The position numbers and the translations under genes are program-made. 64,000 bases of DNA from Candidatus Pacebacteria bacterium CG2_30_36_39 (GTDB lineage Bacteria; Patescibacteriota; Microgenomatia; UBA1400; PJMF01), in the NCBI GenBank assembly GCA_001873435.1, contig MNZB01000004.1, positions 14,030 through 78,029 of the forward strand. The letters run 5' to 3'. Positions 6,507 to 57,970 of the stretch are shown one piece after another (position 1 is the first letter of the stretch; each line of letters starts with the position of its first letter). Below the pieces are notes generated by a model. The model saw nothing but the letters and a program-made list of their open reading frames with translations, had not been told where the DNA came from and did not search any database.

Positions 6507-7778
6507 TTAATGCTTTAAAGCTTCTCTTTGTTCAATGCTGTGAAAAATTAAGATCACCAAAATCAAAGGAAAAAATGCCATTAAAGCAGTTTTATGTGAA
6601 CCAAAATTATCCAAAGCAAAACCAATAGCTGGAAACAATACAATAGAAATAATATTGCGCACAAGACTCTCCAAAGAACCAAGAGTAGCACGCATATTCT
6701 TTTGATAAAAATATTGTTTGAATGGACTCATGATTGGAGAAATTAATGAACTAAATGAGAAATAAACTACAAAAAATATTAAACCAGCAATAGGACCAGA
6801 AACAACAAATAAAGATGTTAAAACTAATAATCTAGCAACCATCATGATTTCCAAATATTTTTTTTCTGAAGAAAATTTCTTACTAAAATATTTAGGTACC
6901 AAACTAAAAACTGCCCCCATCAAAGAACCCAAGGCAACCATAATAGGTAAATTTCTTACATCCAATTTAAGATCCAATAAAAATGATTGATAAACTACAT
7001 CTGAAAAAAATAGGTTTACCACTTCACTAAAAATACCAACAAATAATAATTTTTTAACAACTGGATGAGAACTTGTATATTTAATTGCTTGTTTAGAAAT
7101 TTTAACTGTATCAGCAAAATTCTTTTTTAAAGAAAAAGTAACTTTTCTGGTTTTTTCTTTCAAACCAGAAAGAATCATGGCACCAACAAAATAACCCACA
7201 CAACCAGTTAACCACAAAAAATCTAAACCCTGGTGACTCTGACCAAAAACAAAATATTGAGTAGTAGCACCAACTAAGTACAAAAAGATAATTGCATTTA
7301 AATTTGAAAAAGCAGTAGCAAATTGATAAACAAACTCAAAGGTTGAATAAAACTTATTAATCAAATCTTCTCTTTTAGCTTTTTTGGCAATGTCGTAAGG
7401 TAAAGACTCAAAAGCTCCAGAACTAAATGTATAAGCAATTCCCTTTAAACTAAAAAGAAACCACATCATCCAAGGCTCAGTAATAAAGAAAAATAAGCCA
7501 AAAATTAAAGACTGCATCAACCAACTAACTTGAACAGATTTTCTTTTGCCATATAAATCTGCAAAAACTCCAGTTGGAATTTCTGCGATTAATAAAAATA
7601 ATGATTGCAAAGACAAACCAATACCAACCTGAGTTGCTGAAAAACCTTTGGCAAAAAAGAAGGCCATAATAACCATATCAATATCTGGAATAGAAACACC
7701 TGTTCCTAAACCTAAATAAATAGGGTTAAAAAGCTGCCATTCTTTTTGCTTAAAATAATTTTTTAGCTTCTTAAACAT
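6507..7778 (-). CDS. MFS-type transporter (host-like composition), last gene of the atypical operon
   Basis: About 12 hydrophobic segments. MFS loop motif GVFADLYGKRKS (GxxxDrxGrR-like). Only a 7-nt gap to the upstream gene. Confidence 0.65.
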   Translation of the reverse strand: MFKKLKNYFKQKEWQLFNPIYLGLGTGVSIPDIDMVIMAFFFAKGFSATQVGIGLSLQSLFLLIAEIPTGVFADLYGKRKSVQVSWLMQSLIFGLFFFITEPWMMWFLFSLKGIAYTFSSGAFESLPYDIAKKAKREDLINKFYSTFEFVYQFATAFSNLNAIIFLYLVGATTQYFVFGQSHQGLDFLWLTGCVGYFVGAMILSGLKEKTRKVTFSLKKNFADTVKISKQAIKYTSSHPVVKKLLFVGIFSEVVNLFFSDVVYQSFLLDLKLDVRNLPIMVALGSLMGAVFSLVPKYFSKKFSSEKKYLEIMMVARLLVLTSLFVVSGPIAGLIFFVVYFSFSSLISPIMSPFKQYFYQKNMRATLGSLESLVRNIISIVLFPAIGFALDNFGSHKTALMAFFPLILVILIFHSIEQREALKH

Positions 7779-7785
7779 AAGATTC

Positions 7786-8226
7786 TTATCTTACACAAAT
7801 TCGAGCAAAATGAATAATCATTTCCATTTCTTCAGTAAGCTCTAAGCCTTCTCTAGTTTTAACAGCAAATCTATCATCTTCGGCAACAATTGAAATAATT
7901 TCTAAAGTAGCAGTAGTGAAAAACTCACAACCAACTCCATTTACTAAGTATTCCAAAATATCCCAAAGTCTAATATTTCTCTTATCCCATTCCAAATCTT
8001 GGCCAGCCAAAAAATCTTCCTCTGCTAAAGCTAAAACATCTCTAGCTCCTTCACTTAATTGACCTGATTTGTTTTTTAACTGATAAATAATCAGCATGGC
8101 TGCAGCGCAACTAGCGGTATCAGTTGTGAGCATATGACCACATACATGATAAAGCAAATCGCAGTTACATTCCTCTGCTTGTTCTTCTGTTTCTAGAAGA
8201 TGTTTTGGTTTTTTTTCGTCAGACAT
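7786..8226 (-). CDS. hypothetical acidic Cys/His-containing protein
   Basis: 146 aa, acidic. EECNCDLLYHVCGHM could be a metal-binding cluster. Same strand and tight spacing with the operon genes. Confidence 0.4.
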   Translation of the reverse strand: MSDEKKPKHLLETEEQAEECNCDLLYHVCGHMLTTDTASCAAAMLIIYQLKNKSGQLSEGARDVLALAEEDFLAGQDLEWDKRNIRLWDILEYLVNGVGCEFFTTATLEIISIVAEDDRFAVKTREGLELTEEMEMIIHFARICVR

Positions 8227-8237
8227 AATATCCTTTA

Positions 8238-10151
8238 TTATTCTTTTTCTTGCTCATTAATAAAAAGTGCTACAGCACAGCTATCAGAATCAGCCGCTAA
8301 AGCCTGGGCACATAATTTTTCTAGTTCATTTAATTGAGAAGTTTGAATTCCTTCGTTTAATTCTTCGTCAGTAACATAAGTTGGAAAACTCATTGGTTCA
8401 GTTAGCATGAATCTTTCAGTATGAGTACTTTCGATTGGTTGAAAAATTTCTTCTGGACTTTGCAAATCTTTAAGCATTGCCTGCAAAATCTGCATCGGAC
8501 CTTCATGAGTAGAAACAACAACCTTCATTGATCTACCAGTCTCCTGATAAAACTGATTAACTGTTTCTAGTAAATCAATCATAAAAGACAAAGCTTTGAG
8601 ATGTACAAATGAGAAATTTTCACCACCAGCTATGGCATTAGAAAATGAATGCAAAACTTCTTCACCATATTCACTAGCTTTGTGTCCAACTCCAACTCCG
8701 AATGAACGCTCATTTAAACGCCAATCTCTAACAATAGCTGAAACTGGGAACGGCTCACCAATTGACCATAAAGCAACATCAATAGTTGCTAACGAAGAAG
8801 TTCTACCTGATGAAATTACTAAATCTGGAGCAGTAGTATCCCAAAGCTGAGTAGCAATATCATATGAACGTTGAGCACTTCTCTTGGCAATAGTGTCGTC
8901 AAGAATTCCATCGTTGGTATTAATTACACCAGGAAGTTTGCCAGCTCTTTGAGGAGTACTGTCGCCATTGCGAACTAAAAGCAAGTCCAAACCTGCTCCA
9001 TAATTCCAATTAGCTAATAATTCTTGATAACGAGTTCTAAGTTCATCAATACTTGGAATTAGTTCAAGAATTTCTGCTTTTTCTGGATTACTAGCAGTAA
9101 CAAAACTTGGTTCAGAAACTAATCTACCCAACTTACTAGGATCTCTTTGATTAACCCTATCTTTAACATATCCAGCTTGAGTTTCTTCATCCGCATTTTG
9201 AGCAGAAACAGAAACATCCTGAGTTAAACGATTGGTTTCCCAAAGTTTGAGAGCTCTTTTTTGATCTTCAGTTGGTTGATAATCTGGTTTTTCAACTGTA
9301 TGAGCACTCATAATACTTTCTACTTCGATACCATTTGGAAAAGAAAGTACACCAGTAGCATTAATAATAGGAGTAACCTCAGTTTGAAAATATCTAGTAC
9401 CATATTCTTGTGCCCAATAAAGCAAACCTGAAGTAAAAATTAAACGAGTGCCTGGTTTTAATTTGGCATCTTTATAAACTTCATGTTCAAGTAAAACTTT
9501 CTCTAGATCTTCACGCCAATTACGAGCTAATTTTTCGATTTCAGCTGGAAATGATTCCACACGACGAGCATCACCTGCTACATCATCAGCTTTAATACCT
9601 TCTATTTGAGCATTGAGTTGAGCACCATTAAAATCATCCCAGCCATCTATTTCAACCCACATGGGACTCATACCAGCAACTGGACCACTACCCCATACTT
9701 TGCCAGCTGGAGAAACATCTCTATTAGAAATGTCTTGATAAACTCCGGCGTGAGTGATTTTTATTCCACCATCTTCGGTAACTACAGCCATAATAGCTGT
9801 TTCACCTTCAATAGCGTATTTAACACCATGCAAAAGCTCTAAGTCGTTAAGATCTAGTCTTCCTTTTGAATTTGGTACTAATGACCAATCTGGAGGAAGT
9901 GGATCTTCATAATAGGTACCATCTGGAAGAGTTGTAGGAGCTGAATTCCATTTCAAAGTAAAAACATGATCTGGAGTCCATTCACTAAGAGGCATGACTT
10001 CTTTGATCTCGCCATCTTTTGCCACTGCAGCTACTAAGCCTTTTTGTCGCAACTCTGCTTCAAAAGCTCTTTTTTCTTCTTTGTTTGTCCAATCTACTCT
10101 TTCGAGAGAAAGATCAAATTCTTGACGTAATCTACTTATTTTTTCTGCCAT
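8238..10151 (-). CDS. hypothetical two-domain protein; C-terminal phosphoglycerate-mutase-like (histidine phosphatase superfamily) domain with RHG to RNG substitution
   Basis: C-terminal region aligns block by block with dPGM: LLLVRNGDSTPQ vs LVLVRHGESQWN, SSGRTSSLAT vs TSVLKRAIHT, PVSAIVRDWRLNERSFGVGVGHKASEYGEEV vs [33 protein letters not shown], and VVVSTHEG vs IIAAHGNS. The N-terminal 380 aa are unassigned. Confidence 0.55.
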   Translation of the reverse strand: MAEKISRLRQEFDLSLERVDWTNKEEKRAFEAELRQKGLVAAVAKDGEIKEVMPLSEWTPDHVFTLKWNSAPTTLPDGTYYEDPLPPDWSLVPNSKGRLDLNDLELLHGVKYAIEGETAIMAVVTEDGGIKITHAGVYQDISNRDVSPAGKVWGSGPVAGMSPMWVEIDGWDDFNGAQLNAQIEGIKADDVAGDARRVESFPAEIEKLARNWREDLEKVLLEHEVYKDAKLKPGTRLIFTSGLLYWAQEYGTRYFQTEVTPIINATGVLSFPNGIEVESIMSAHTVEKPDYQPTEDQKRALKLWETNRLTQDVSVSAQNADEETQAGYVKDRVNQRDPSKLGRLVSEPSFVTASNPEKAEILELIPSIDELRTRYQELLANWNYGAGLDLLLVRNGDSTPQRAGKLPGVINTNDGILDDTIAKRSAQRSYDIATQLWDTTAPDLVISSGRTSSLATIDVALWSIGEPFPVSAIVRDWRLNERSFGVGVGHKASEYGEEVLHSFSNAIAGGENFSFVHLKALSFMIDLLETVNQFYQETGRSMKVVVSTHEGPMQILQAMLKDLQSPEEIFQPIESTHTERFMLTEPMSFPTYVTDEELNEGIQTSQLNELEKLCAQALAADSDSCAVALFINEQEKE

Positions 10152-10152
10152 A

Positions 10153-11139
10153 TTATTTGCCCAATTTTTCAGCGTTTAAATTTGTAAAGTAGGTAAAATA
10201 ATCACCATCCAAAGGAGCATTGGTAGGAACAAAAGTTTCCTCAGTTCTAGCCACAGTCTTTCCAGGAATAACTGTCTCAACAACTTTATTTTCAGCTAAC
10301 TTCATTACACTTCTGGCAGTGAAACTTGGCATAATAGCTGGATCGATTGATCTAGCACCATCATCTTCAAGTAAAATTTGACCTGTTGATAATAAAAATG
10401 GCTTGCCTTCAACAATTCCTAGTTTGGCTAATTTTTCTGGAGAATAATTACCAACCCATTTGCCTAAGCGTTCACCCCAAAGCTTTAAAGAATTAACTTG
10501 AGCATTTGGAGTATGTAAAGCAACTTCACCTGTTTGGTCATAAACCCAATATTCCATTTCGATTTCGGCAATTTCTGACCAATCATTTACTTGAACCCAA
10601 GTAGTAGATAAACCAGAAGATCCTCCATTTTCAATACCACTAGTCCATGTTTTATATGTTCTGCCGGTATCATCTAAACGAGGAGTTCTATCACCAAAAT
10701 CAACCAAGGTACCAATATATAAAGGCTTCATTACTCCATTTTCTAGAACACCAACCACAGCTGCCTCAGCCTCTAAAACGTATTGTTTTTGACCCTCAAT
10801 CATACAAAGAGCTTCTGTTGAAGCAGTATCGTGAGCTTTTGGCAAAGGCTCGATATGAGGATTTGGTTTTGAAGTAGCAATATTAAAATGCATTAAATAT
10901 CCATGCTCTGGCAAAAATTCACCTCGAGTTTGATATTGCAAAGAATCATCACTACCTACCACCAAAACTATATCTAATGGCTTAAGCAACTCTTCTAATC
11001 TGCGATGTAAATCTGGTCTAGAAAATAGTTGAGTAGCTTTTAAATGAGATAAATCAATTTCTTTGGAAATTAAATCTATTCCAGATAATTTTTCATCTTT
11101 TTCTAGAAATTCTAAATCGATAATGATTGTTTCTTTCAT
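10153..11139 (-). CDS. hypothetical protein (acidic, Trp-rich)
   Basis: 328-aa ORF with a 1-nt gap to the downstream gene, in the operon. No recognisable motif. Confidence 0.45.
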   Translation of the reverse strand: MKETIIIDLEFLEKDEKLSGIDLISKEIDLSHLKATQLFSRPDLHRRLEELLKPLDIVLVVGSDDSLQYQTRGEFLPEHGYLMHFNIATSKPNPHIEPLPKAHDTASTEALCMIEGQKQYVLEAEAAVVGVLENGVMKPLYIGTLVDFGDRTPRLDDTGRTYKTWTSGIENGGSSGLSTTWVQVNDWSEIAEIEMEYWVYDQTGEVALHTPNAQVNSLKLWGERLGKWVGNYSPEKLAKLGIVEGKPFLLSTGQILLEDDGARSIDPAIMPSFTARSVMKLAENKVVETVIPGKTVARTEETFVPTNAPLDGDYFTYFTNLNAEKLGK

Positions 11140-11163
11140 ATAATCGTTCCTTTTAAGAATTCT

Positions 11164-12795
11164 TTAATGAGTTCCTGAGGCGACTCTTTGAGCGTGAACA
11201 GCCATTGTGTCGCTAGAATTTTGTAATGAACCAACTACGTTTACGTACTCTGGCAATCTCATTCCATCTCTGTGTCTATCAACATCGTGGAGAGTACCAA
11301 TAATACGACCACCTGGTTTAACTAACCTACTGGCTTCCTCAAAAATCTTACAAACTTGATGTCCACCTTCACAACAATCAGCAGCTGATGTTTGAACAAC
11401 TACCATGTCATAAAGTGGTTCTTCATAAAATTCACCAATTGGAATATTACCCAAGTCTTCAACGTTGCGGAAACGAACGTTCATAGCACGCATACCATTT
11501 AGAGCCTGCATGATGAAAGCTTGCTTACCTCTACCATGACTCATGATGTCAATACGACGAAGTGGATTTTTACCATCCTTGGCATTAGCAGCAGATAAAA
11601 TATTTGCTTCTTTATGACAACCAATGAATAAAACTCTTTGACGAGGATTTTCTCTTAGTTCGGCTAGAGCTTCAGCAATATTAGAGTCAGGAGTATGATC
11701 TTGTTTTCTCCATTCCTCATACTTTTCTTGGAAGAGAGATTCTACTTTATTCCAATCTAAAGATAGAACTTCAGCAGTATCTCTAATTCCTAAGGCACCT
11801 AAAACAAAAGCTTTTAATGGATAAAAGGTATTGTGACCAGCATCAGTCACTAAACTATAATCTCCAACCCAACTATTTACTTTAGCTTGAGCTGCAATTA
11901 CTGATCCCTCTCCAACATACATAGTTCTATAAAGAACTTTGGCTTCTTTAGCTACCCAAGCCCAATCACCAATAGTGACACCTGGGAAACTAGTATATTG
12001 ACGGACACGAGCAAGTTGAGAAGGTAGATCGGCTGGATGTTCTTGAGTAATAAAGTAGGCTTTTTGACCAACCCAAGCATTATCACCAATTTTTAAAGTT
12101 TCACCACCTTGTACGTTAAAGGCACCGCCAATACGAGCATAGCGACCAATAGAAACTCTAGGAATAGCACTCATTGGACCCATTGAAGAATCCATTTCTG
12201 GATGAGCAGAAGTGTTGTAACCAGAACTCTGAAAATGAGTAGGAAGAATAGCTTCAAAACCACGGCCAACATCAGTTGGAAGCATTTGTGAGCCACCTCT
12301 TAGCATATCAAAACTTAATGGATTGCCACTTGGACTAATTGTTTTTCCAGATTCTTCCAAAGGATGGACATGTAAAATAGGACCAGTAGTATCAATATAA
12401 AAATGTTCTTCTGGTAAGTTAAAAGCTGCTCTGAGTTCTCCGAGTTTTTCTTTCCAAAGAGCTGCCATGGCAATTTCATCGGTAAAGGTTTTAGCTTTGC
12501 TACCAATTTTCTTTAAATCAGCACAGATCATGGCCCAAGCATAGGCTGGGGTCATGTCACCCAAATGCAAAGCACCTTGAACAAACATTGCTACTTCAGC
12601 ATCAAATGGACGAGTGTATTCTGCCGGTTGATGCTCTTCAAAAACTACTGGTCTAGTAAGACCAAGTTCTTGAGCTAATTTCATTTGGTTGGAGGGATCA
12701 CGGTCGATAATTTGACCCGCAGGATTAATAGCCAGGACTTCACCTTGGCCTAATCGTCTATGAACTTCTTCTGTGTGTTCTGCCTTTTTTGCCAT
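11164..12795 (-). CDS. hypothetical multi-domain protein: N-terminal unknown domain, central left-handed beta-helix (hexapeptide-repeat) region, C-terminal class-I methyltransferase-like fold
   Basis: Hexapeptide-like periodicity in SIGRYARIGGAFNVQGGETLKIGDNAWVG...VTIGDWAWVAKEAKV...VGEGSVIAAQAKVN. The C-terminus has VLFIGCHKEA (degenerate motif I), YDMVVVQTSAAD (motif II-like) and LVKPGGRIIG (motif III). Start taken at ATG 12795 (MAKKAEH); the track starts at an upstream TTG. Confidence 0.5.
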   Translation of the reverse strand: MAKKAEHTEEVHRRLGQGEVLAINPAGQIIDRDPSNQMKLAQELGLTRPVVFEEHQPAEYTRPFDAEVAMFVQGALHLGDMTPAYAWAMICADLKKIGSKAKTFTDEIAMAALWKEKLGELRAAFNLPEEHFYIDTTGPILHVHPLEESGKTISPSGNPLSFDMLRGGSQMLPTDVGRGFEAILPTHFQSSGYNTSAHPEMDSSMGPMSAIPRVSIGRYARIGGAFNVQGGETLKIGDNAWVGQKAYFITQEHPADLPSQLARVRQYTSFPGVTIGDWAWVAKEAKVLYRTMYVGEGSVIAAQAKVNSWVGDYSLVTDAGHNTFYPLKAFVLGALGIRDTAEVLSLDWNKVESLFQEKYEEWRKQDHTPDSNIAEALAELRENPRQRVLFIGCHKEANILSAANAKDGKNPLRRIDIMSHGRGKQAFIMQALNGMRAMNVRFRNVEDLGNIPIGEFYEEPLYDMVVVQTSAADCCEGGHQVCKIFEEASRLVKPGGRIIGTLHDVDRHRDGMRLPEYVNVVGSLQNSSDTMAVHAQRVASGTH

Positions 12796-12853
12796 AATTC
12801 TCTCTTTTCTCCCCAATTAGTAATATTTGAGCAGTGCGAGAAGAAAAAAAAGG

Positions 12854-12898
12854 ATTATAGTCCTTTCATAATGAATTGTCAATACTTTATATAGGATA
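12854..12898 (-). promoter_or_regulatory. near-consensus sigma70 promoter (TTGACA-17-TATAAT) with upstream TATCCTATA element; drives the 11164..6507 operon
   Basis: Minus strand reads TATCCTATATAAAGTATTGACAattcattatgaaaggacTATAATcc. The -35 is at 12877..12882, the -10 at 12854..12859 and TATCCTATA at 12890..12898. Confidence 0.55.
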
Positions 12899-13233
12899 TA
12901 TATATTATCAATACCAGATCTGAAAAAAACATAAAAATAAATTATTACAAGATCTTTGAAAGACTAATAGTAATGTTTTTATTAAAATATAAGTCTATCA
13001 ATTATTTGTAAATAACAAAATAAAGGCCCATAATGAGAGTGTTAAATGTTTTCTACAGTAGCGTTCGCACTCGCTTATGGAATCATCTAACAAAATCCCT
13101 GCCTCATGGCAAGAAAGGAGACCATCATTGGAAAACTTCATTTGTCACCAATCTTTGCTTCTTGGTAATCCAAAACAAATCAATTCAGCATGCATGGGAG
13201 AGAACACAACGCCTCCCCCTATTTTCATATAAC

Positions 13234-14349
13234 TCAACTATTTATTATTTTTTCCCAACTATATTTTTCATTACCAAAATGCCCATAAACAGCAGTCTGC
13301 TTATAAATTGGTTGTTTTAAATTTAAATAATTAATTGTTCCAGCCACAGACAAATCAATTAGTTCTTTGGCAAATTTTTCTATTTTTTTATCACTAACTT
13401 TGGCTGTGCCAAAAGTCTCTATCTCCAACATAACTGGTTTTTGTGCTCCAATAAAATATGCCAAACGTACTTCAGCTTTTTTAGCTAAATTATTTCCAAC
13501 AATATTTTTAGCAATAAACCTAGCTGCATAAGCACCAGATCTATCAACTTTACTAGGATCTTTACCAGAAAATGCTCCCCCACCTACCCTGGCAAAACCA
13601 CCATATGTATCTACCACTATTTTTCTTCCAGTTACTCCAGTATCTGAGGCTGGACCACCTATATACCAAGCCCCAGTACCATTAACTACTAATTGATTTT
13701 TATTAATTGAAAAACCATAAAATTCTAATACTGGCAAAACTACTTGTTGATATAAATCATTTTTTACATCTACAAGTTTCATACTCTTTTGGTGCGGTAC
13801 AGCCAAAACTACTTGGACAATACCAACTGGTTTATCATTTTCATATTGAACACTAACTTGAGTTTTTCCATCTGGCCTAAGATATGAAAGTTGCTTACTT
13901 TCTCTAACACAATCTATTTTTTCAGCCAATTTATGTGCTAACTCTATTGGAAGTGGCATAAGATTTTTTGTGTCCTGACAAGCATAGCCAAACATCATTC
14001 CCTGATCTCCAGCTCCAGCACTATCAACTCCTATGGCAATTTCTGGAGACTGATTGTGAATATAGACATTTATTGGAGATAAATTAGTAAAACCAAGGAA
14101 CCACTTAGTAAATCCAAGTCTCTTGATTTCTTCTCTGGCAATTAATTCATAATTTGGTTTTTCACCAAGACAAGTAACTTCTCCAGCCATCACCACTTGA
14201 TTTGCTGTTACTAGGGTTTCTACAGCAACCCTTCCATTAGGATCCTGCTTAAGAACAGCATCAACTACTGCATCAGATATTTGATCACAGATCTTATCAG
14301 GGTGACCAGCACAGACTGATTCTGAAGTAAAAATATATGATTGTGGCAT
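13234..14349 (-). CDS. metK: S-adenosylmethionine synthetase
   Basis: GHPDKICDQISDAVVDA and other MetK blocks. Start taken at MPQSY (14349) because GAGGAG lies 9 nt upstream; the upstream in-frame Met at 14367 lies inside the RBS. Confidence 0.95.
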   Translation of the reverse strand: MPQSYIFTSESVCAGHPDKICDQISDAVVDAVLKQDPNGRVAVETLVTANQVVMAGEVTCLGEKPNYELIAREEIKRLGFTKWFLGFTNLSPINVYIHNQSPEIAIGVDSAGAGDQGMMFGYACQDTKNLMPLPIELAHKLAEKIDCVRESKQLSYLRPDGKTQVSVQYENDKPVGIVQVVLAVPHQKSMKLVDVKNDLYQQVVLPVLEFYGFSINKNQLVVNGTGAWYIGGPASDTGVTGRKIVVDTYGGFARVGGGAFSGKDPSKVDRSGAYAARFIAKNIVGNNLAKKAEVRLAYFIGAQKPVMLEIETFGTAKVSDKKIEKFAKELIDLSVAGTINYLNLKQPIYKQTAVYGHFGNEKYSWEKIINS

Positions 14350-14351
14350 AA

Positions 14352-14503
14352 AAAAAACTCCTCTCAATAATTAAGGAGGAGTTACTTATTTTTTTTGCCT
14401 ATTTCGGCCACATCATTCCCCCTTAAGCGAACTAGCACCGTATCCTTTGCCAAAAGGCTCGGTTGCTGGACAATGTATAAACATTGCCACTCTTGATGTT
14501 GAG
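14352..14503 (-). promoter_or_regulatory. SAM-I-clan (S-box-like, possibly SAM-I/IV variant) riboswitch leader with terminator hairpin overlapping the metK RBS and start codon
   Basis: Minus-strand RNA CUCAACAUCAAGAGUGGCAAUGUUUAUACAUUGUCCAGCAACCGAGCCUUUUGGCAAAGGAUACGGUGCUAGUUCGCUUAAGGGGGAAUGAUGUGG contains the S-box signatures AUCAAGAG, GCAACC and GGUGCUA plus a closing P1 (CAACAUC/GAUGUGG). It is followed by AACUCCUCC-uuaauuauuga-GAGGAGUU-UUUUUUUU(AUG). P2 is a simple hairpin without the classic GGAGGGA/GGCCC kink-turn, so the subtype is uncertain. Confidence 0.55.
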
Positions 14504-14538
14504 AAAAATTATATCAGACTAATATTTATTTGCACAGC

Positions 14539-35133: not shown

Positions 35134-35208
35134 ATGGCTCCCCCGGTAGGATTCGAACCTACAACCTTGTCGTTAACAGCGACCTGCTCTGCCATTGAGC
35201 TACAGGGG
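35134..35208 (-). tRNA. tRNA-Asn (anticodon GTT), CCA encoded
   Basis: Minus strand TCCCCTGTAGCTCAATGGCAGAGCAGGTCGCTGTTAACGACAAGGTTGTAGGTTCGAATCCTACCGGGGGAGCCA. 7-bp acceptor stem, anticodon loop CTGTTAA, T-loop GGTTCGAATCC. Confidence 0.85.
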
Positions 35209-35235
35209 ATTATATAAAGAACCTCAGTATTATAT

Positions 35236-36552
35236 CTATTCTAAGAAGTCTTGCAACTTCTTTCTGCGAGAAGGATGCTTAAGCTTTCTAAGAGCCTTAG
35301 CCTCAATTTGACGAATACGCTCACGAGTCACACCAAACTTCTTGCCCACCTCTTCAAGAGTCATAGTCTTATTACCCTGCAAACCAAAACGCATCTTCAA
35401 AACCTTGGCCTCACGATCTGACAAAGCACTAAGCACTTCCTCAATATTCTCACGCAACATCTGCTTACTAGTAGACTCATATGGAGAGATCTGCTTATCA
35501 TCAGCAATAAAATCACCCAAAATACTATCATCCTCACCATCACCCACTGGAGTCTCAAGAGAAGTAGTATTTTGTGAAATCTTTAGAATCTCACGAACCT
35601 TATCAGGCTCCATCTCCATCTTCTCACCAATCTCCTCGGGACTTGGCTCACGACCAAGATCTTGCATCAATCTTCTAGAAGTCCTCATCAACTTATTAAT
35701 GGTCTCAACCATATGAACTGGAATACGAATAGTTCTAGCCTGATCAGCAATAGAACGAGTAATAGCCTGACGAATCCACCAAGTAGCATAAGTAGAAAAC
35801 TTAAAACCCTTAGTCCAATCAAACTTCTCCACAGCACGAATCAAACCCTTATTACCCTCCTGAATCAAATCAAGAAAAGTCATACCACGACCAATATATT
35901 TCTTAGCAATAGAAACCACCAAACGCAAATTAGCATCAATCAACTGCTGCTTTGCCTCTGCACTACCAGCCTCAACTTCCTGAGCCAAACGAATTTCTTG
36001 CTCACGATTCAACAAAGGAATACGTCCAATTTCTTTCAAGTACATACGAACAGGATCTGCCACACCAGTACTCTTCATGCTACTAAGCATGTCTAGCTCT
36101 TGTTGTAACTCACCATCAACAACCTCTTCTTTTTCCTCAGAAACAGCCTCAAAAACATCGATATCAGCAACTACAATTTGATCGTAAAAATCATCAATCT
36201 GCTCTAAATAAAGTTCTGGCTCAACAAAAACATCAAGAATCTCTTCTTGAGTAACATAACCCTGTTTCTTAGCCTTAATAAACAAAGCATCAACCTGCTC
36301 TTGAGTTCTAGCAGGCAACTTCTTTTCTTCTTGTTGAGGACGAATCACAAAAGGCAAATCATTAGCAGCAGCCCTAACCTCTTCTTTAGTAGCAGGAGCC
36401 TGTTCTTCGATCTGCTCTGCCTGAAGCCTTGCCTCTTCTACCAATTTTTTACTAATCTTAGTTTTCTTGACTACTTCAGCAACCTTCTTAGGTTTTTTAG
36501 CTGCTTTATCAATATCTTTTTTATTAGTTTTGGGAGAAGATTTTGCGGTCAT
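35236..36552 (-). CDS. rpoD: RNA polymerase sigma-70 factor RpoD
   Basis: Regions 2 to 4 ([27 protein letters not shown], -35 recognition HTH near the C-terminus). Start taken at MTAKSS (36552). The longer ORF-track N-terminus is hydrophobic and is probably upstream read-through. Confidence 0.9.
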
Positions 36553-36605
36553 GAGATGTATAATTATACACATAAAAATCAATAGCGCCAGACTAAAAAT
36601 AGATA

Positions 36606-37613
36606 TTGTCAAATTCCCACAGAAACAGCCATATATACTTGTTTTTAATAACAAAACTACTGTTTAATAGACAAGTGCTAAAAAAAATCTGGTCACTTAT
36701 TCACCAACACGAACTACTCATTGGATTAACAGGATTTATTCTTAGCTTCCTCTACTATTGGTATAACCCAAACAAACCAATAACCTTATCTCACGCCATC
36801 CCTGGCCTTATCAATTGGTTCTGCGTCTTCCTCATCGGAGATTGGACCAACAGAATCCTAGGAGAAGGCTATGTTCTACCTCGTTATTGGCGCCAATACT
36901 TTAACTTTAAAGAAATTGTCTTAGCCAGCTTTATCATGAACCTCATCTCCGACATCACCGGCTCATGGCTCTTAAAACTCTGGTACTACCCACTATTCGA
37001 CAACCCATTACTCTACCTGCTCATTTTGGCCCCACTAGGCTATGTCCTCTTTGGCTTCATCCTTTATGTATTCTATCGAGCCATCAAACATCACTTTGAT
37101 TTTGCCATGAAAAAAGGTAGACTAAAAAAATCTCAACACCTTCTCTTTAAATTTTTAATTCATCTACAACTAATAGCAGGAATAATAGGCTTTGCTCTTA
37201 GCACCCAATACTATTACAACTTTGTGCAAAACAACCAAATTATTTGGTCAGCCTTCCACCAACCAATTAATGCTCCAGTACAAATCCAGTTCTTCATCAT
37301 GCTTTGGTTTAGTCTTTTCTGGATCTTCGAATACCTATGTTATAGAAACAAAAAAGAAACCCTAACCAGAGACCTAATAAGGGGAAATTGGTTACCAATC
37401 TGGGCAATCCTAGTTTCAAGCGCAGTCTGCATCAGCCTAGTAGAATTTGTAAACGCCCCATTCCAAATCTGGATTTTCACCAACTGGCCCTTCCAGGCAG
37501 CCAACTTCTTACACATCCCATTAGTAGCCTACTTAGTTTGGCCAACCCAATACCTACTGCTCCTATCCCTAATCAGACTCTTTGATAAAAATAATAGTGA
37601 AAACGTTTGGTAA
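36606..37613 (+). CDS. polytopic integral membrane protein, function unknown
   Basis: Many aromatic-rich TM segments. The track start is TTG. A downstream GTG (MLKKIW...) is an alternative start. Confidence 0.5.
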
Positions 37614-45583: not shown

Positions 45584-46414
45584 TTACGGAGCAACAACGT
45601 TGCTGGCAACCAAGGTCCATCCCGTCGCGTTTGTATGGCGAAGAATGGTCCAGGCGCCGTTGTTCACATCGAAGAAAACGACGTAAACAACTTTGCAACC
45701 CTGAAGTCCGCAGTTGTACAAGTGGCTGTTCGCCGCTTGCTGATAGATGTACGGCTGATCCATGAAGCCGCCAGCATTCTCTTTGACCTGATATTGCGTC
45801 ACCGTGGTTGCGCCAGGGTGATATCTGGAGAAGTTAACATCCAGATTCAGGTCTCCGGGTCCAGAATTGCGACCGCGGAGATAGATTTGCCATTCCACAT
45901 CCGGCTGGGGATTGGCGACAATCGAGTAGTTGCCAAACTTCATGACAACTCCAGCAGTAGTAGTCAGCTGGTAACCGCCTTCGTGAACGAATTTGGTTGC
46001 GGTGGCATTTTCCAACGACTCTTGCGAGTCAGGAGAAATGAGAGCCGCACTCGGATTGGCTTTGCGTTCGGCTTCGGTTTCGACGCCGACGACGCCGGGT
46101 TTGCCGCAGAAATCTTTACCGCCGGGAAGTGTGCAGACGTTTTCGTTGAAAACGCCATCTGCCCAACGATAAGCGGTGACCTTATAAGGGGCACCTTTGA
46201 TTTCGTAGCTCGGAGGTTGGATCTTGGCATTGCTTTGAGAAGGGCTGTCGTTTGATGGACCGCCTTGACCGGTGGAAACCGATTGAGTCGGGGCTACCGC
46301 AGTCACAGCAGGCTGTTCGCCGCCAGACATGTGGAAGTTACCGATATCAATGTTCCAGGGAGCGCAAGCGCTCAAAAGCACGGTCAACAACACTAGGGTT
46401 AGGGTCTTTTTCAT
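45584..46414 (-). CDS. lipoprotein, compositionally atypical (high GC, E. coli-like codon usage), function unknown
   Basis: MKKTLTLVLLTVLLSAC lipobox. RBS AAGGAG. GC-rich codons (CTG, GCG, CCG). A plus-strand shadow ORF overlaps it. Confidence 0.6.
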   Translation of the reverse strand: MKKTLTLVLLTVLLSACAPWNIDIGNFHMSGGEQPAVTAVAPTQSVSTGQGGPSNDSPSQSNAKIQPPSYEIKGAPYKVTAYRWADGVFNENVCTLPGGKDFCGKPGVVGVETEAERKANPSAALISPDSQESLENATATKFVHEGGYQLTTTAGVVMKFGNYSIVANPQPDVEWQIYLRGRNSGPGDLNLDVNFSRYHPGATTVTQYQVKENAGGFMDQPYIYQQAANSHLYNCGLQGCKVVYVVFFDVNNGAWTILRHTNATGWTLVASNVVAP

Positions 46415-46772
46415 CTTTCGTTACTCCTTGAGAGGTTTGATAGCAGTTTCGCCGCTCTAGTCCACGCTGGACTAGAGTCAGTTCACGCAATTAAAAACCA
46501 TATAAAAAGTTTCTAATTGCGCGAACCGATGGCTCAACTTCAAACTTCAAAAGAAGTAAAATTTCTCACTTGTTAAAGAGCGACTGAATTAACAGTCACC
46601 GTTGCTAAAAAGTATTTCGCTTAGAACATTCGTAGTGAATGAGTAGCGAGCAAGCTCTTCAGCCAAAAATCTTTTTATAAAAAACAAGACTTTTGGCTAA
46701 AGATCTGAAAGCAAAAAATTATTTTAATTAACTAATACTCTTGGTATATATATGTTTTTTTACACCAGGCTT

Positions 46773-46813
46773 AAGTATAGCACTAAAAGACCATTTTGTC
46801 AATGTTATAGGAT
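46773..46813 (-). promoter_or_regulatory. sigma70 promoter TTGACA-17-TATACT with upstream TATCCTATA element (drives 45584..46414 through a ~350-nt structured leader)
   Basis: Minus strand TATCCTATAACATTGACAaaatggtcttttagtgcTATACTtaagcctgg. Confidence 0.55.
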
Positions 46814-46891: not shown

Positions 46892-47320
46892 CTATGGAGT
46901 TGGTGTTGGGGTTGGAGTAAGAGTAAACACCGGCGTGAGCGTCGGTGGTGGTGTGGGTGTCCAAGACTGAGCAGTTGCAGTTTTTGCTGCCACCGCTATT
47001 GCCTTGTTCTCTGCCTCGATCTTTTTATCGATCTCGGAGATATCACCTTCAACCTTTTCGAGTTGAGCCTTTCCTTCTTCGATTTTTGCTTCGATCTCAA
47101 CTTTGCTGTCAAGCAAAATCAATTTCTGACAAATCAGAGGAAGTTCATCCTCTGGCATACTGGTGATTGAACCGAATTCATTTTCTCGGCCAATCACTTT
47201 TAATGCATCGTAGCAGGAGGCTGCCGCTTTTTCCTTTTCAGTTGCGAAAAGGCCGGAGCAGCTGCTCAACACAAAAATCCCTACTACTGCCAACAACAGG
47301 AAGATGTGAATCTTCTTCAT
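46892..47320 (-). CDS. small lipoprotein with coiled-coil segment and C-terminal Thr/Pro repeat tail, compositionally atypical (higher GC)
   Basis: MKKIHIFLLLAVVGIFVLSSC lipobox. A/E/K-rich heptad-like stretch. C-terminal TPTPPPTLTPVFTLTPTPTPTP. RBS GGAG. Confidence 0.6.
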   Translation of the reverse strand: MKKIHIFLLLAVVGIFVLSSCSGLFATEKEKAAASCYDALKVIGRENEFGSITSMPEDELPLICQKLILLDSKVEIEAKIEEGKAQLEKVEGDISEIDKKIEAENKAIAVAAKTATAQSWTPTPPPTLTPVFTLTPTPTPTP

Positions 47321-47403: not shown

Positions 47404-47444
47404 AGTATAACAAAATAGATCAAAATAGTCAATGTTATAGGATA
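47404..47444 (-). promoter_or_regulatory. sigma70 promoter TTGACT-17-TATACT with upstream TATCCTATA element (drives 46892..47320)
   Basis: Minus strand TATCCTATAACATTGACTattttgatctattttgtTATACTtaccagg. The leader contains the palindrome ACAGCGC-AA-GCGCTGT. Confidence 0.55.
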
Positions 47445-47450: not shown

Positions 47451-48854
47451 CTATTTTCTTTTTAACTCATAGCCATATAAATGGCGTAAAAAGATAGCAG
47501 GAGGATCTTCTAATAAAAACTGCTGAAACTCTTGATAAAGGGCTTTGCGTTCTTCTTGATCCAAAGTGGTTCTAGCTTTCTCCAATAAACTATCAATACG
47601 AGTATTCTTGTAATTAGTAAAATTTGTTGATTGACCAGAATGCCAAAGGAAATATTGATCTGGATCAACTGGTGATTCCTGACCTATTAAGAGTAACTGA
47701 AAATCATTTGTATCTGGAAAACTACTAACTTTTAAGTTAACCTTAATTTCTAGAAAACCACAAAGTTCTTTTTCTTTTACAGCACTAGATTTCTGACAAT
47801 CGGCAACAGCTTTTTTACCTAGCTCAGTCCACTGTTGAACAATGCTTTCAGCATCTTTCTCAAAAGTTTGAGTCGTAGTTAAATAAAGCTCTAGTGGTTG
47901 TCTAGGCATATCGTCAAAAAAACGTTCTGTAGCTCTATTTAAATCTTTTTCATAATTCTTCCCACCCTCAAGATATGCCCATGAAGTTGGATCTATTGGA
48001 CCTCTAGCTTGAGTGCCATCGCGTGGACTCTCTAGACCGTAAGATAAGGCCTGTCTCACAGATTTGGTCATCAAAGGATCGGCATTATTAAAAAATACAG
48101 CCAAATATCTATCAGTATGAAGAATTGGAGTGCTTTCAACATTTTTCCAATCTTTTAGATCTGCAGGATCAGCTATATCTGGAATAATATCTATCTCTCC
48201 CTTTTTGAAAGCATTAATTAAATCAGTTTCTGTTAGATAAAAACGATAAACAAGCTTTTTATCTGGAGTTTCCACCACAAGCTCACTTAAACGATTACCT
48301 TTTTTAGTGTAATCTGCAATTCTATTTGGCCCAATACCAATAAGGGTTTGTCTAGAAAAAAACCATAGATATTTTTCAGTTCCTTGACGAAATACTGGTT
48401 CTGATAGCACAGATGGAAATGGAGAAAATGCGTCTGGTAATTTAAAAACTAAGTCATTGGGTGTTGCCACAGTTTCAACATCAACAAATTGATATTTAAT
48501 ATCTGCTGGCTCAACTTCTTTACCATCCTGCCAAACAACATCCTTTTTTAAAACAAAACGATATTGTTTACCATCATCTTCCACCACCCAGCGTTGAGCT
48601 AAATATGGTTTCGCTTCTTTGGTTTCGGTTATTTGAGTTAAGCCTACACTTAACTGATTTTTAATAGTCTGGGGTAAAGTATTGAGAGTGAAACTACCAA
48701 TCATCCCAATATATTCTTTTTTCTTGAAATTAAGACGATCTACTAGGAATGGAATAAAAAGAGAGAAAATAATAATTGCTCCAACTAATGAAGTAATTAA
48801 AATCGGGCCATGTTTTTTGGCATAAGCAGTTAGATACCAGTACAAACGTCTCAT
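47451..48854 (-). CDS. ABC transporter substrate-binding protein, family 5 (peptide/nickel type), membrane-anchored
   Basis: SBP_bac_5-like blocks (RFVLKKDVVWQDGKEVEPADIKYQF, PDQYFLWHS). N-terminal TM anchor. Confidence 0.7.
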   Translation of the reverse strand: MRRLYWYLTAYAKKHGPILITSLVGAIIIFSLFIPFLVDRLNFKKKEYIGMIGSFTLNTLPQTIKNQLSVGLTQITETKEAKPYLAQRWVVEDDGKQYRFVLKKDVVWQDGKEVEPADIKYQFVDVETVATPNDLVFKLPDAFSPFPSVLSEPVFRQGTEKYLWFFSRQTLIGIGPNRIADYTKKGNRLSELVVETPDKKLVYRFYLTETDLINAFKKGEIDIIPDIADPADLKDWKNVESTPILHTDRYLAVFFNNADPLMTKSVRQALSYGLESPRDGTQARGPIDPTSWAYLEGGKNYEKDLNRATERFFDDMPRQPLELYLTTTQTFEKDAESIVQQWTELGKKAVADCQKSSAVKEKELCGFLEIKVNLKVSSFPDTNDFQLLLIGQESPVDPDQYFLWHSGQSTNFTNYKNTRIDSLLEKARTTLDQEERKALYQEFQQFLLEDPPAIFLRHLYGYELKRK

Positions 48855-50886: not shown

Positions 50887-51103
50887 AAAAACTAGAGGAG
50901 TTTCCTCTAGACAGACGCGAAGAGCGATCGGGGACCGACAGGCTGATTTATTGCATTACTGCGAGTCATAATATTAATAAGTTTGTCCGATATATTCGAT
51001 AATTCTGTTTGCGTTTTTTCCATTTAGACTTAAATTTTTTCAAACTCAAGTCACTTCGCAAGTTACTGGCTGAGATTATATGCCCTCTTGGCACTTTAGT
51101 CAA
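50887..51103 (-). ncRNA. candidate ~180-nt sRNA or terminator-attenuated rny leader: consensus promoter (TTGACT-17-TATAAT) followed by intrinsic terminator
   Basis: Minus strand TTGACTaaagtgccaagagggcaTATAAT (-35 at 51098..51103, -10 at 51075..51080). About 180 nt downstream lies CTAGAGGA-aac-TCCTCTAG followed by TTTTTCC (50887..50910), 90 nt before the rny start. Confidence 0.35.
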
Positions 51104-51176
51104 TGAAAAACATTTTCAATAACTTAAAGTATAGGACTATATATCAATCCTTTTGGCACTTTTACACCTAATTTGG

Positions 51177-52435: not shown

Positions 52436-52509
52436 CGGAGAGTGGCGCAGATGGCTAGCGCGCGCGCATGGGGTGCGCGAGGTCGCAGGTTCGAGTCCTG
52501 TCTCTCCGA
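52436..52509 (+). tRNA. tRNA-Pro (anticodon GGG), C1:G72 acceptor, no encoded CCA
   Basis: CGGAGAG-TG-GCGC-AGATGGCTA-GCGC-G-CGCGC-ATGGGGT-GCGCG-AGGTC-GCAGG-TTCGAGT-CCTGT-CTCTCCG-A. Cloverleaf is consistent. Anticodon loop AUGGGGU. Confidence 0.85.
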
Positions 52510-54143: not shown

Positions 54144-54160
54144 ATCATCATTTTAAACCT

Positions 54161-54640: not shown

Positions 54641-54707
54641 ACTTTAATTATAAAAGAAATAAATCAGATTTTTCTGTTTTTGATGTGTTTATAATGCGTT
54701 ATAAAGA

Positions 54708-54740
54708 ATGCAAAAAGGGCTAATGTTTAATTAGCCCTTT
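54708..54740 (-). terminator. intrinsic terminator AAAGGGCTAAT-gttta-ATTAGCCCTTT plus U-run, after the Ltp gene
   Basis: Perfect 11-bp stem followed by TTTTTGCATTC on the minus strand. Confidence 0.6.
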
Positions 54741-54767
54741 AGTATTCGATTAAACAGATTGGTGATG

Positions 54768-55316: not shown

Positions 55317-55358
55317 AGGGTAACCCTTTCGTTGTTCTAATCTTGTGGTTAATTATAT

Positions 55359-55405
55359 AGCAAATTGGGTGTTTACAACATAACTAATCCAATGTCTACA
55401 ACGTG
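55359..55405. promoter_or_regulatory. operator-like repeat cluster between divergent Ltp and XRE genes
   Basis: GTGTTTACAACATAACTAATCCAATGTCTACAACGTGGTGTAAACAT: imperfect inverted repeat (GTGTTTACA / TGTAAACAt) and direct repeat TACAAC. Confidence 0.35.
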
Positions 55406-57928: not shown

Positions 57929-57970
57929 TATCCTATAACTATTGATTAATTACATATTTTGTTATACAAT
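57929..57970 (+). promoter_or_regulatory. sigma70-like promoter TTGATT-17-TACAAT with upstream TATCCTATA element; ~195-nt leader to the GC-rich small membrane protein gene
   Basis: Plus strand TATCCTATAACTATTGATTaattacatattttgttaTACAAT. Fourth occurrence of the TATCCTATA-N3..7-(-35) arrangement. Confidence 0.5.

What the first reader, a model, noticed from the sequence alone, without database searches (positions are those of the whole stretch)
12854..12898. Textbook TTGACA-17-TATAAT promoter with the TATCCTATA upstream element in front of the atypical operon
Perfect -35 and -10 hexamers with 17-nt spacing are rare in an AT-rich genome. This one carries the same upstream 9-mer as the lipoprotein promoters but with a 7-nt spacer (TATCCTATA-TAAAGTA-TTGACA) instead of 3 to 4 nt. 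It links the large acidic-protein operon to the same putative regulon.
Basis: seen in the sequence. Interest (0 to 1): 0.6.

Follow-up and report, generated by a model that had tools for sequence, protein, structure and literature searches.

The report
Consensus promoter with conserved upstream TCCTATA element
A perfect housekeeping-type promoter drives a rare five-gene cassette in an uncultivated groundwater bacterium, and it carries a short upstream sequence (TCCTATA) that related genomes keep, in one orientation, just before the -35 box of their strongest promoters, so this is probably a lineage-specific third promoter element whose reader protein is unknown.

Summary
On the minus strand the sequence reads TATCCTATA (12898-12890), 7 nt, TTGACA (12882-12877), 17 nt, TATAAT (12859-12854). 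It is the only 12/12 promoter in the 64 kb window, against about 0.013 expected. It lies after a terminator-like hairpin that follows metK, and 58 nt before the ATG at 12795.

The conserved unit is the 7-mer [T/G]CCTATA, not the 9-mer. In five orthologous cassette promoters from other metagenomes, only TCCTATA, TTGACA and the -10 are conserved. There the gap to the -35 is 1-2 nt, so the 7-nt gap in the window is a derived 5-nt insertion.

In relatives of this Candidatus Pacebacteria genome, CCTATA is the top 6-mer upstream of promoter-like sites (14/40, against 3/221 in distant genomes). It always has the same orientation (16/54 against 0/54). The genes downstream are mostly small lipoproteins or secreted proteins.

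I read it as a clade-specific upstream promoter element read next to sigma region 4, either by RNA polymerase itself or by a docked factor. Whether it activates or represses, and whether it defines a true regulon, cannot be tested here. I class it as a new variant of a known kind, of moderate interest.

The parts
12890..12896 (-). TCCTATA, the conserved core of the upstream element. With +1 placed at 12847 the core covers about -49 to -43.
   Evidence: It is invariant in alignment A1 of the orthologous promoters and in L175.
12883..12889 (-). 7-nt gap TAAAGTA between the element and the -35. Orthologs have 1-2 nt here, so this is a derived insertion of about 5 nt.
12877..12882 (-). -35 hexamer TTGACA.
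   Evidence: It is invariant in A1.
12860..12876 (-). 17-nt spacer. It has no TG extended -10 motif.
12854..12859 (-). -10 hexamer TATAAT.
12796..12847 (-). Predicted 5' UTR of about 52 nt, with the inferred transcription start near 12847. A pyrimidine-rich 5' end can pair with the purine-rich region around the ribosome-binding site.
   Evidence: The start site is inferred from the -10 position. The fold is and is not significant for the window sequence (z = -1.1).
11164..12795 (-). Gene 1, 543 aa. It has a central left-handed beta-helix (hexapeptide) acyltransferase-like segment and only 10 homologs in the 5.8-billion-protein set.
10153..11139 (-). Gene 2, 328 aa, acidic. It is a paralog of the N-terminal half of gene 3.
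8238..10151 (-). Gene 3, 637 aa, acidic. The N-terminal domain resembles fumarylacetoacetate hydrolase (FAH)/isomerase folds. The C-terminal domain has the histidine-phosphatase (phosphoglycerate mutase/TIGAR) fold, with RNG where that family has its RHG motif.
7786..8226 (-). Gene 4, 146 aa, very acidic and Cys-containing, with no recognised family.
6507..7778 (-). Gene 5, an MFS transporter. It is the last conserved member of the cassette.
   Evidence: Synteny is seen in L006, L007 and L010.
13096..13115 (-). Terminator-like hairpin with a T run downstream of metK. It insulates the operon promoter from metK read-through.
46774..46812 (-). Second composite promoter: TCCTATA-ACA-TTGACA-17-TATACT, with TGn before the -10. 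After a 359-nt leader it precedes the 276-aa lipoprotein gene (45584-46414).
47404..47442 (-). Third composite promoter: TCCTATA-ACA-TTGACT-17-TATACT. It precedes the 142-aa lipoprotein gene (46892-47320).
   Evidence: Orthologous composites lie downstream of the substrate-binding protein gene (47451-48854) in L094, L096, L099, L100, L101, L113 and L014.
57931..57970 (+). Fourth composite promoter: TCCTATA-ACTA-TTGATT-17-TACAAT. It precedes a 73-aa membrane protein gene (58159-58380) and a 145-aa membrane-anchored protein gene (58515-58952).
51075..51136 (-). Fifth copy: TCCTATA lies 26 nt upstream of TTGACT-17-TATAAT (11/12), between recA and the RNase Y gene. Its membership of the class is uncertain because of the long gap.

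Best explanation
Positions 12854-12882 (minus strand) are a genuine housekeeping (sigma-A/sigma-70 type) promoter. It starts transcription near 12847 and drives a five-gene cassette: an acyltransferase-like protein, a FAH-like protein, a FAH-like plus histidine-phosphatase-like protein, a small acidic protein and an MFS transporter.

The upstream sequence is one copy of a clade-specific cis-element with core [T/G]CCTATA. In this Candidatus Pacebacteria lineage it sits in one fixed orientation, 1-7 nt (mode 3 nt) upstream of the -35 hexamer of the most consensus-like promoters, centred near -42. Most likely it is contacted by a protein that lies next to sigma region 4 on the promoter. That protein would be either part of RNA polymerase (an alpha C-terminal domain with altered specificity, in the manner of an UP element) or a small dedicated factor docked on sigma region 4 or the alpha C-terminal domain. 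The contact would modulate initiation, and I favour stimulation, at a set of envelope-protein genes and at this cassette.

Shown here: the anatomy, the conservation, the orientation and position bias, and the restriction to one clade. Inferred: the transcription start, the identity of the reader protein, and the direction of the effect. In the window copy a 5-nt insertion has moved the element about half a helical turn away, so this copy may be weakened or act differently.
For: 1. The core promoter is the only 12/12 site in 64 kb, against about 0.013 expected. It is intergenic, correctly oriented, 58 nt upstream of the ATG, and downstream of a terminator-like hairpin after metK.

2. The organism's primary sigma factor is in the window (35236-36654). 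It has canonical regions 1.1-4 and canonical 2.4/4.2 sequences, consistent with TTGACA/TATAAT recognition.

3. Phylogenetic footprint. In orthologous cassettes whose gene-1 protein is 67-77% identical and whose upstream neighbours differ, only TCCTATA, TTGACA and TATA.T are invariant in the intergenic DNA. L175 has the exact sequence TATCCTATA-G-TTGACA.

4. A de novo k-mer count upstream of TTGAC[AT]-16-18-TAnnnT sites ranks CCTATA and TCCTAT first in clade loci: 14/40 sites against 3/221 in 2.16 Mb of distant loci, Fisher p = 2e-10.

5. Orientation is absolute. Of 54 CCTATA copies, 16 have TTGAC[AT] 0-8 nt downstream; in the opposite orientation the count is 0 of 54, p = 8e-6.

6. There are at least six promoter groups at non-orthologous positions: the operon, the promoter after the substrate-binding protein gene, window 46812, window 57931, L012 and L101-1643.

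7. In the window, three of the four intergenic sites scoring 11/12 or better carry TCCTATA upstream.

8. The genes downstream are mostly small lipoproteins, secreted proteins or membrane proteins. The three tRNA promoters in the window lack the element, which suggests a gene set rather than a universal strength element.
Against: - There are no expression data, so no transcription start or activity is shown.
- The gap varies (1, 1, 1, 2, 3, 4, 5, 7 nt). That is unusual for a factor needing rigid stereo-specific contact with RNA polymerase, and the window copy has the largest gap.
- The promoters that carry the element already have consensus -35 hexamers, and often an extended -10. This is not the profile of classical activator-dependent promoters.
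- The motif contains an invariant CC and does not resemble the A/T-tract consensus of UP elements.
- Many of the counted sites are orthologs of two promoters, so the number of independent observations is about 6, not 16.
- More distant cassette orthologs (L013, L174, L010, L012; gene-1 identity 59% or less) keep a consensus promoter without the element, so the element is dispensable for the cassette.
Confidence: 0.6

Rival explanations
1. TCCTATA is the operator of a repressor. The strongest consensus promoters, for envelope proteins and this cassette, would be held in check by a protein that binds next to the -35 and blocks access by sigma region 4 or the alpha C-terminal domain.
For: The element accompanies promoters that need no activation, with consensus -35, 17-nt spacing and often a TGn extended -10. 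The variable gap of 1-7 nt is more easily tolerated by steric repression than by activation. The tRNA promoters lack the element.
Against: The site is a single asymmetric 7-mer with no dyad or repeat, whereas classical repressors bind as dimers to palindromes or repeats. Strict orientation relative to the promoter (16 against 0) is not needed for steric blocking. The site lies upstream of the -35 rather than over the -35/-10/+1 region.
Confidence: 0.17
2. The element has no function of its own. It is carried along in a promoter module that spread by duplication within these genomes, and it persists through shared ancestry and limited divergence time.
For: The two adjacent lipoprotein promoters share an identical 17-mer, TATCCTATAACATTGAC. 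One-mismatch variants of the 9-mer are not enriched, as expected for recent copies rather than a degenerate binding site.
Against: In the alignments of orthologous promoters the flanks and spacers are essentially randomised, while TCCTATA is as invariant as the -35 and -10. The gap differs between copies. The element occurs at non-homologous genes in genomes whose gene-1 protein is only 47% identical (L012), and as GCCTATA in L100, L113, L010 and L016.
Confidence: 0.1
3. The TATA(A/T/G)N part of the element is a second -10-like hexamer. It would capture sigma region 2 of another polymerase, or act as a tandem upstream promoter, so that the composite is two overlapping promoters.
For: After TCC the sequence always reads TATAAC, TATAAT, TATAGT, TATATA, TATATT or TATAAA. 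In the window, a -35-like TTGATA at 12911-12906 lies 16 nt upstream of TAAAGT, and a direct repeat GTATTGAYAAT flanks the element.
Against: The invariant CC is not explained by a -10. The commonest form, TATAAC, lacks the essential final T. No -35-like hexamer lies at the right distance in the other copies.
Confidence: 0.05
4. The association is a chance co-occurrence of A/T-rich words in A/T-rich intergenic DNA.
For: The genome is 35% G+C, and the 7-mer is not over-represented overall (6 against 8.2 expected).
Against: See the placement, orientation and clade-versus-distant statistics and the conservation in orthologs.
Confidence: 0.02

Closest known systems
UP element of strong sigma-70 promoters (e.g. 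E. coli rrnB P1), read by the RNA polymerase alpha C-terminal domain
   Same: It lies directly upstream of the -35; with the modal 3-nt gap it is centred near -42, the position of the proximal UP subsite. It accompanies the most consensus-like promoters. It tolerates a few nt of positional play, as expected for a flexibly tethered reader. (The properties of UP elements are taken from established knowledge, not tested here.)
   Different: UP elements are A/T tracts read in the minor groove. This element has an invariant CC and a defined 7-mer sequence, is confined to one lineage, and is missing from the tRNA promoters in the window.
Sites of factors docked on sigma region 4 that read DNA just upstream of the -35 (e.g. 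the mycobacterial WhiB7 AT-hook site about 3 bp upstream of the -35; class II activators centred at -41.5)
   Same: It is an asymmetric short site abutting the -35, with fixed orientation and a modal 3-nt gap, at a defined gene set.
   Different: No such factor has been identified here. Promoters dependent on such factors usually have weak core elements, whereas these have consensus ones. The gap ranges from 1 to 7 nt.
Canonical sigma-70/sigma-A housekeeping promoter (TTGACA-17-TATAAT)
   Same: The hexamers and spacing are identical, and the window encodes a canonical RpoD.
   Different: None for the core. A perfect 12/12 match is rare in natural promoters, yet it is conserved in the cassette orthologs of L006, L007, L013 and L174.

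Membership tests
Sigma-70/sigma-A housekeeping promoter | A -35 TTGACA-like hexamer and a -10 TATAAT-like hexamer separated by 16-18 bp | tested here: met
   12/12 match with a 17-nt spacer, unique in the window.
Sigma-70/sigma-A housekeeping promoter | Upstream of a gene, in its orientation, in non-coding DNA | tested here: met
   It lies in the 417-nt intergenic region, 58 nt upstream of the ATG at 12795, and after a terminator-like hairpin at 13115-13096.
Sigma-70/sigma-A housekeeping promoter | A cognate primary sigma factor with canonical DNA-reading regions is present in the organism | tested here: met
   RpoD at 35236-36654 matches Pfam regions 1.1, 1.2, 2, 3 and 4 and has canonical region 2.4 and 4.2 sequences.
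Sigma-70/sigma-A housekeeping promoter | A transcript 5' end about 7 nt downstream of the -10 | not testable with these tools
   No transcriptome data are available; the predicted +1 is near 12847.
UP element (alpha C-terminal domain site) | Located between about -38 and -59 | tested here: met
   TCCTATA covers -49 to -43 in the window copy and -45 to -39 in the copies with a 3-nt gap.
UP element (alpha C-terminal domain site) | A/T-tract sequence matching the UP consensus (proximal subsite AAAAAARNR) | tested here: not met
   The core is [T/G]CCTATA with an invariant CC.
UP element (alpha C-terminal domain site) | Stimulation depends on the alpha C-terminal domain and needs no other factor | not testable with these tools
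   This needs in vitro transcription with cognate holoenzyme, with and without the alpha C-terminal domain.
Class II activator site | Site abuts or overlaps the -35 and is centred near -41.5 | tested here: inconclusive
   The centre is about -42 for the 3-nt-gap copies but about -46 for the window operon copy; gaps range from 1 to 7 nt.
Class II activator site | Dependent promoters have a sub-optimal -35 | tested here: not met
   The -35 is TTGACA in 13 of the 17 composites from the window and its close relatives.
   There are four composites in the window, plus one with a 26-nt gap.
   There are no expression data, and no candidate factor was found. The only HTH proteins I noted in the window are an XRE-type protein in a putative integrated element and an ArsR-type protein.

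The most novel reading that the evidence does not exclude
Bacteria of the Pacebacteria branch of the candidate phyla radiation, and in weaker form a wider part of that radiation, use a three-part promoter: CCTATA, then -35, then -10. The third element would be read sequence-specifically by the transcription machinery itself, either by an alpha C-terminal domain with new specificity or by a lineage-specific polymerase accessory subunit docked on sigma region 4. It would mark a class of very highly expressed cell-envelope genes. This would be a previously undescribed core-promoter element in a large, unstudied part of the bacterial tree.
Probability: 0.25. Interest if true: 0.65.

Novelty: new variant of a known kind. 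Interest (0 to 1): 0.45.

Why it matters
Almost nothing is known about how transcription starts or is regulated in candidate phyla radiation (Patescibacteria) bacteria, because most cannot be cultivated. The full-text searches I ran found no description of promoter motifs for them.

A short, orientation-fixed, phylogenetically footprinted element next to the -35 provides three things:
- a concrete sequence for predicting strongly expressed or co-regulated genes in these genomes, here lipoproteins, secreted proteins and a rare five-gene cassette;
- a handle for finding its reader by phylogenetic profiling or DNA-affinity methods;
- a testable case of promoter-architecture evolution.

The promoter itself is a ready-made strong promoter for genetic tools in these lineages. 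If the element proves to be an ordinary binding site for a transcription factor, the finding is useful but not surprising.

Tried and rejected
- One-mismatch variants of the 9-mer are not enriched. I therefore dropped the idea of a degenerate 9-bp site and looked for the conserved core.
- The RecA scan of genome contigs mostly returned other phyla. It served for taxonomy (closest: L014, a Paceibacterota MAG, Cerribacteria, Woesebacteria) and as a negative control, but used the single genome scan.
- I aligned the long leaders (240-440 nt) behind several composite promoters to look for a conserved RNA. Only the promoter blocks are conserved, and Rfam at gathering threshold finds nothing there.
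- A viral-contig scan for the full composite found nothing.
- Literature searches for TCCTATA and for promoter motifs in this radiation found nothing relevant. Two searches failed on syntax.
- I considered a resemblance to the DnaA box (TTATCCACA). Only TATCC is shared, and the invariant TATA half does not fit. This comparison is from memory and was not tested further.
- I considered an alternative sigma promoter with CCTATA as its -35. Nothing is conserved 16-18 nt downstream of it other than the TTGACA promoter itself.
- The sixth TCCTATA (58505-58511, minus strand) is conserved in L094. It is better explained by the opposite strand, where TATAATATAGGACATATG is the -10 and start region of the 145-aa gene.

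Full report
**1. Observation**

Read on the minus strand, the window has these features:
- TATCCTATA at 12898-12890
- TAAAGTA at 12889-12883
- TTGACA at 12882-12877
- a 17-nt spacer at 12876-12860
- TATAAT at 12859-12854

The consensus scan of 5-20 kb and my scan of the whole window on both strands find this to be the only 12/12 TTGACA-N16-18-TATAAT site. From the hexamer counts (28 TTGACA, 58 TATAAT), about 0.013 sites are expected at 17-nt spacing.

The exact 9-mer occurs four times, against 0.61 expected; none of 100 dinucleotide-preserving shuffles reaches four. The other copies are at 46814(-), 47444(-) and 57929(+). They lie 3, 3 and 4 nt upstream of TTGACA, TTGACT and TTGATT, each followed after 17 nt by TATACT, TATACT and TACAAT. 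The sequence is identical in four independent assemblies of the same population (L001-L004).

**2. Context**

The organism is an uncultivated groundwater bacterium of the candidate phyla radiation. NCBI names it Candidatus Pacebacteria bacterium CG10_big_fil_rev_8_21... (GCA_002772855.1). Its nearest RecA relatives are other Patescibacteria.

Upstream on the same strand lies metK (13234-14367), with a SAM-I/IV riboswitch at 14381-14504 and a terminator-like hairpin at 13115-13096. The promoter is therefore needed for what follows.

Downstream, starting at the ATG at 12795, is the cassette:
- Gene 1 encodes a 543-aa protein with a weak hexapeptide-acyltransferase core.
- Gene 2 encodes a 328-aa protein.
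- Gene 3 encodes a 637-aa protein.
- Gene 4 encodes a 146-aa protein.
- Gene 5 encodes an MFS transporter.

The products of genes 2-4 are acidic (pI 4.5-4.8). The gene-1 protein has pI 6.0 and the transporter pI 9.6. The gene-2 protein is a paralog of the N-terminal half of the gene-3 protein (E = 1e-10).

A model of the gene-3 protein (pLDDT 74) shows a C-terminal histidine-phosphatase fold, with TIGAR and phosphoglycerate mutase as best matches (E about 1e-7). Its N-terminal part matches fumarylacetoacetate hydrolase (FAH)/isomerase folds.

The family is very rare: 10 and 8 homologs respectively among 5.8 billion proteins. The five genes travel as a block with different neighbours. In L006 and L007 they sit next to copper-resistance genes.

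**3. Conservation of the promoter and its upstream element**

I fetched the orthologous cassettes and read their upstream DNA:

| Locus | Upstream sequence |
|---|---|
| L006 | GTCCTATA-G-TTGACA-17-TATAAT |
| L007 | GTCCTATA-TA-TTGACA-17-TATAAT |
| L009 | GTCCTATA-T-TTGACA-18-TATACT |
| L175 | TATCCTATA-G-TTGACA-17-TACTAT |

In the alignment of the window with L006, L007 and L009 (A1), the invariant blocks are TCCTATA, TTGACA and TATA.T. The remaining A/T-rich DNA is essentially unconserved. This is a classical phylogenetic footprint, and it puts TCCTATA under the same constraint as the two hexamers.

It also shows that the conserved unit is the 7-mer, because the two preceding bases are TA, CG or AG. 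The window's 7-nt gap is an outlier: relative to L007 (TCCTATATA|TTGACA), the window has five extra bases.

More distant cassette orthologs keep a consensus promoter but lack the element. L013 and L174 (50-53% gene-1 identity) both have TTGACA-17-TATAAT; L010 and L012 also lack the element at the operon. The perfect core promoter is thus a long-standing property of the cassette, and the upstream element is a feature of the closer clade.

**4. Generality**

A scan of metagenome contigs with the substrate-binding protein next to the lipoprotein promoters (47451-48854) gave a graded series of relatives from 83% to 29% identity. The composite is kept immediately after that gene in these loci:
- L094 and L095, as TCCTATA-ATA-TTGACA-17-TATAAT
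- L096
- L099
- L100, as GCCTATA-ACA-TTGACA
- L101
- L113, as GCCTATA
- L014, the closest RecA relative

It also occurs at unrelated genes in L012 and L101.

Without presupposing the motif, I counted 6-mers in the 16 nt upstream of every TTGAC[AT]-16-18-TAnnnT site. In 248 kb of clade DNA, CCTATA (14/40) and TCCTAT (13/40) rank first. In 2.16 Mb of more distant loci the count is 3/221, Fisher p = 2e-10.

With a looser promoter definition, CCTATA is still first of 609 6-mers in the clade. It ranks eighth of 1400 (7/268) in wider candidate-phyla relatives, and is absent (0/342) in the mostly unrelated phyla.

Orientation is absolute. Of 54 CCTATA copies in the clade, 16 have TTGAC[AT] 0-8 nt downstream, against 0 of 54 in the opposite orientation, p = 8e-6. 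The gaps are 1, 1, 1, 2, 3 (ten times), 4, 5 and 7 nt.

In the window, all six TCCTATA copies are intergenic, whereas same-composition 7-mers are 8.4% intergenic (p = 3e-7). A fifth copy lies 26 nt upstream of an 11/12 promoter in front of the RNase Y gene. The sixth copy is explained by the opposite strand. Three of the four intergenic sites scoring at least 11/12 in the window carry the element.

One caution applies. Many of the counted sites are orthologs of two promoters, so about six independent promoter groups support the pattern.

**5. What the element-bearing promoters drive**

Apart from the cassette, the first plausible genes downstream are small lipoproteins with lipobox motifs (L-S-S-C, L-S-A-C, L-T-A-C, V-T-G-C, I-L-A-C), signal-peptide proteins or small membrane proteins. 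Several sit behind leaders of 240-440 nt. Those leaders are not conserved, although the TGn extended -10 is. The three tRNA promoters in the window lack the element. This looks like a gene class rather than a universal strength signal, although three tRNA promoters are a small sample.

**6. Mechanism**

- The window encodes the primary sigma factor (35236-36654). It has canonical regions 1.1-4, the usual region 2.4 and 4.2 sequences, and no C-terminal extension. TTGACA/TATAAT is therefore the expected housekeeping promoter, and sigma itself is unlikely to read CCTATA through an added domain.
- With the modal 3-nt gap the element is centred near -42. That is where the proximal UP subsite and class II activators lie, next to sigma region 4 (positions from established knowledge).
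- Fixed orientation and adjacency argue for a directional contact with the transcription machinery.
- The short asymmetric 7-mer argues for a single DNA-reading head.
- The few-nt play in the gap argues for a flexible tether.

I therefore favour an upstream promoter element read either by an alpha C-terminal domain of altered specificity or by a small factor docked on sigma region 4 or the alpha C-terminal domain, in the manner of WhiB7. I expect its effect to be stimulation.

The main rival is a repressor operator. These promoters already have consensus core elements and so do not look activator-dependent, and a variable gap suits steric repression. Against it are the strict orientation, the absence of any dyad, and the position upstream of the -35. 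Hitch-hiking in a duplicated promoter module, a tandem -10-like element, and chance are less likely for the reasons given under the rival explanations.

In the window's operon promoter the 5-nt insertion moves the element to about -46 and rotates it by roughly half a turn. Whether it still works there is an open and testable question.

**7. Comparison with known systems and novelty**

The core is an ordinary, if unusually perfect, sigma-70-type promoter. The upstream element occupies the place of an UP element or class II site. It fails the sequence criterion of UP elements (invariant CC, no A-tract) and the weak-core criterion of activator-dependent promoters.

I found no description of it, or of promoter motifs in this radiation generally, in the searchable literature. 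That is absence of evidence in one library only.

I rate it a new variant of a known kind, namely upstream promoter elements and promoter-proximal factor sites. Interest is moderate (0.45). It is well supported as a conserved cis-element in a lineage whose transcription is unexplored, but its reader and the direction of its effect are unknown, and it may prove to be an ordinary transcription-factor site.

Noticed in passing
window 6507-12795 (-); L006, L007, L009, L010, L012, L013, L174, L175: The five-gene cassette behind the promoter is extremely rare: 8-10 homologs among 5.8 billion proteins. It moves as a block between different neighbourhoods, next to metK here and next to copper-resistance genes in L006 and L007. 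It combines a hexapeptide-acyltransferase-like protein, two paralogous FAH-like domains, a histidine-phosphatase fold with RNG where that family has its RHG motif, a small Cys-containing acidic protein, and an MFS transporter. Its function is unknown and it has no PADLOC match.
   Followed up: partly
L006 9905-9933, L007 6395-6423, L013 about 2055-2083, L174 about 1969-1997: A perfect 12/12 TTGACA-17-TATAAT promoter is conserved in front of the cassette even in orthologs only 50-53% identical, which lack the TCCTATA element. Long-term retention of a perfect consensus promoter is unusual. It suggests very high expression, or tight repression by an operator I did not find.
   Followed up: partly
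window 12796-12850 (-); L006 9937-10006; L007 6427-6496; L009 2624-2680: In all four cassette leaders a pyrimidine-rich stretch just after the predicted start (UUUCUUCUC, CUUUUCGA) can pair with the purine-rich stretch at the ribosome-binding site. Only the L009 hairpin is significant (-19.4 kcal/mol, z = -4.6). L006 and L007 also share a direct repeat, TTCGA-N2-TTCGA. This could be translational control or an operator.
   Followed up: partly
window 12875-12885 and 12904-12914: A direct repeat GTATTGAYAAT (minus strand) flanks the element. The upstream copy provides a second -35-like TTGATA 29 nt before the real -35, with TAAAGT 16 nt after it. This may be a weak tandem promoter, or a trace of the event that created the 5-nt insertion.
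   Followed up: no
window 14381-14504 (-): A SAM-I/IV riboswitch (Rfam RF01725, 54.5 bits, above the gathering score) lies in front of metK. metK is the gene immediately upstream of the promoter region.
   Followed up: no
window 46415-46773 (-); L014 14776-15190; L100 11488-11890; L101 11970-12376: Leaders of 240-440 nt lie between element-bearing promoters and the secreted-protein or lipoprotein genes they precede. They show no sequence conservation and have no Rfam match. Their role is unclear; a small unannotated gene or a structured leader are possibilities.
   Followed up: partly
window 35135-36654 (-): The primary sigma factor gene rpoD (472-aa ORF, canonical regions) is followed at once by tRNA-Asn. 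The tRNA's promoter-like site, TTGCAA-16-TATAAT, lies inside the 3' end of rpoD.
   Followed up: partly
window 52436-55711: tRNA-Pro is followed by a 562-aa serine-recombinase-like ORF, two small ORFs and a divergent XRE-type HTH gene. This looks like an integrated mobile element at a tRNA gene.
   Followed up: no
window 58505-58511 (-); L094 6445: The one TCCTATA copy without a -35 downstream is conserved in the 83% relative. On the opposite strand it forms TATAATATAGGACATATG, the -10 and start region of the 145-aa membrane-anchored protein gene. That implies a very short leader or none.
   Followed up: partly
window 62484-62610: Another near-consensus promoter (TTGACA-16-CATAAT, 11/12) precedes an ArsR-family regulator and a thioredoxin-like gene, and it has no TCCTATA. 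It is a useful internal contrast to the element-bearing class.
   Followed up: no
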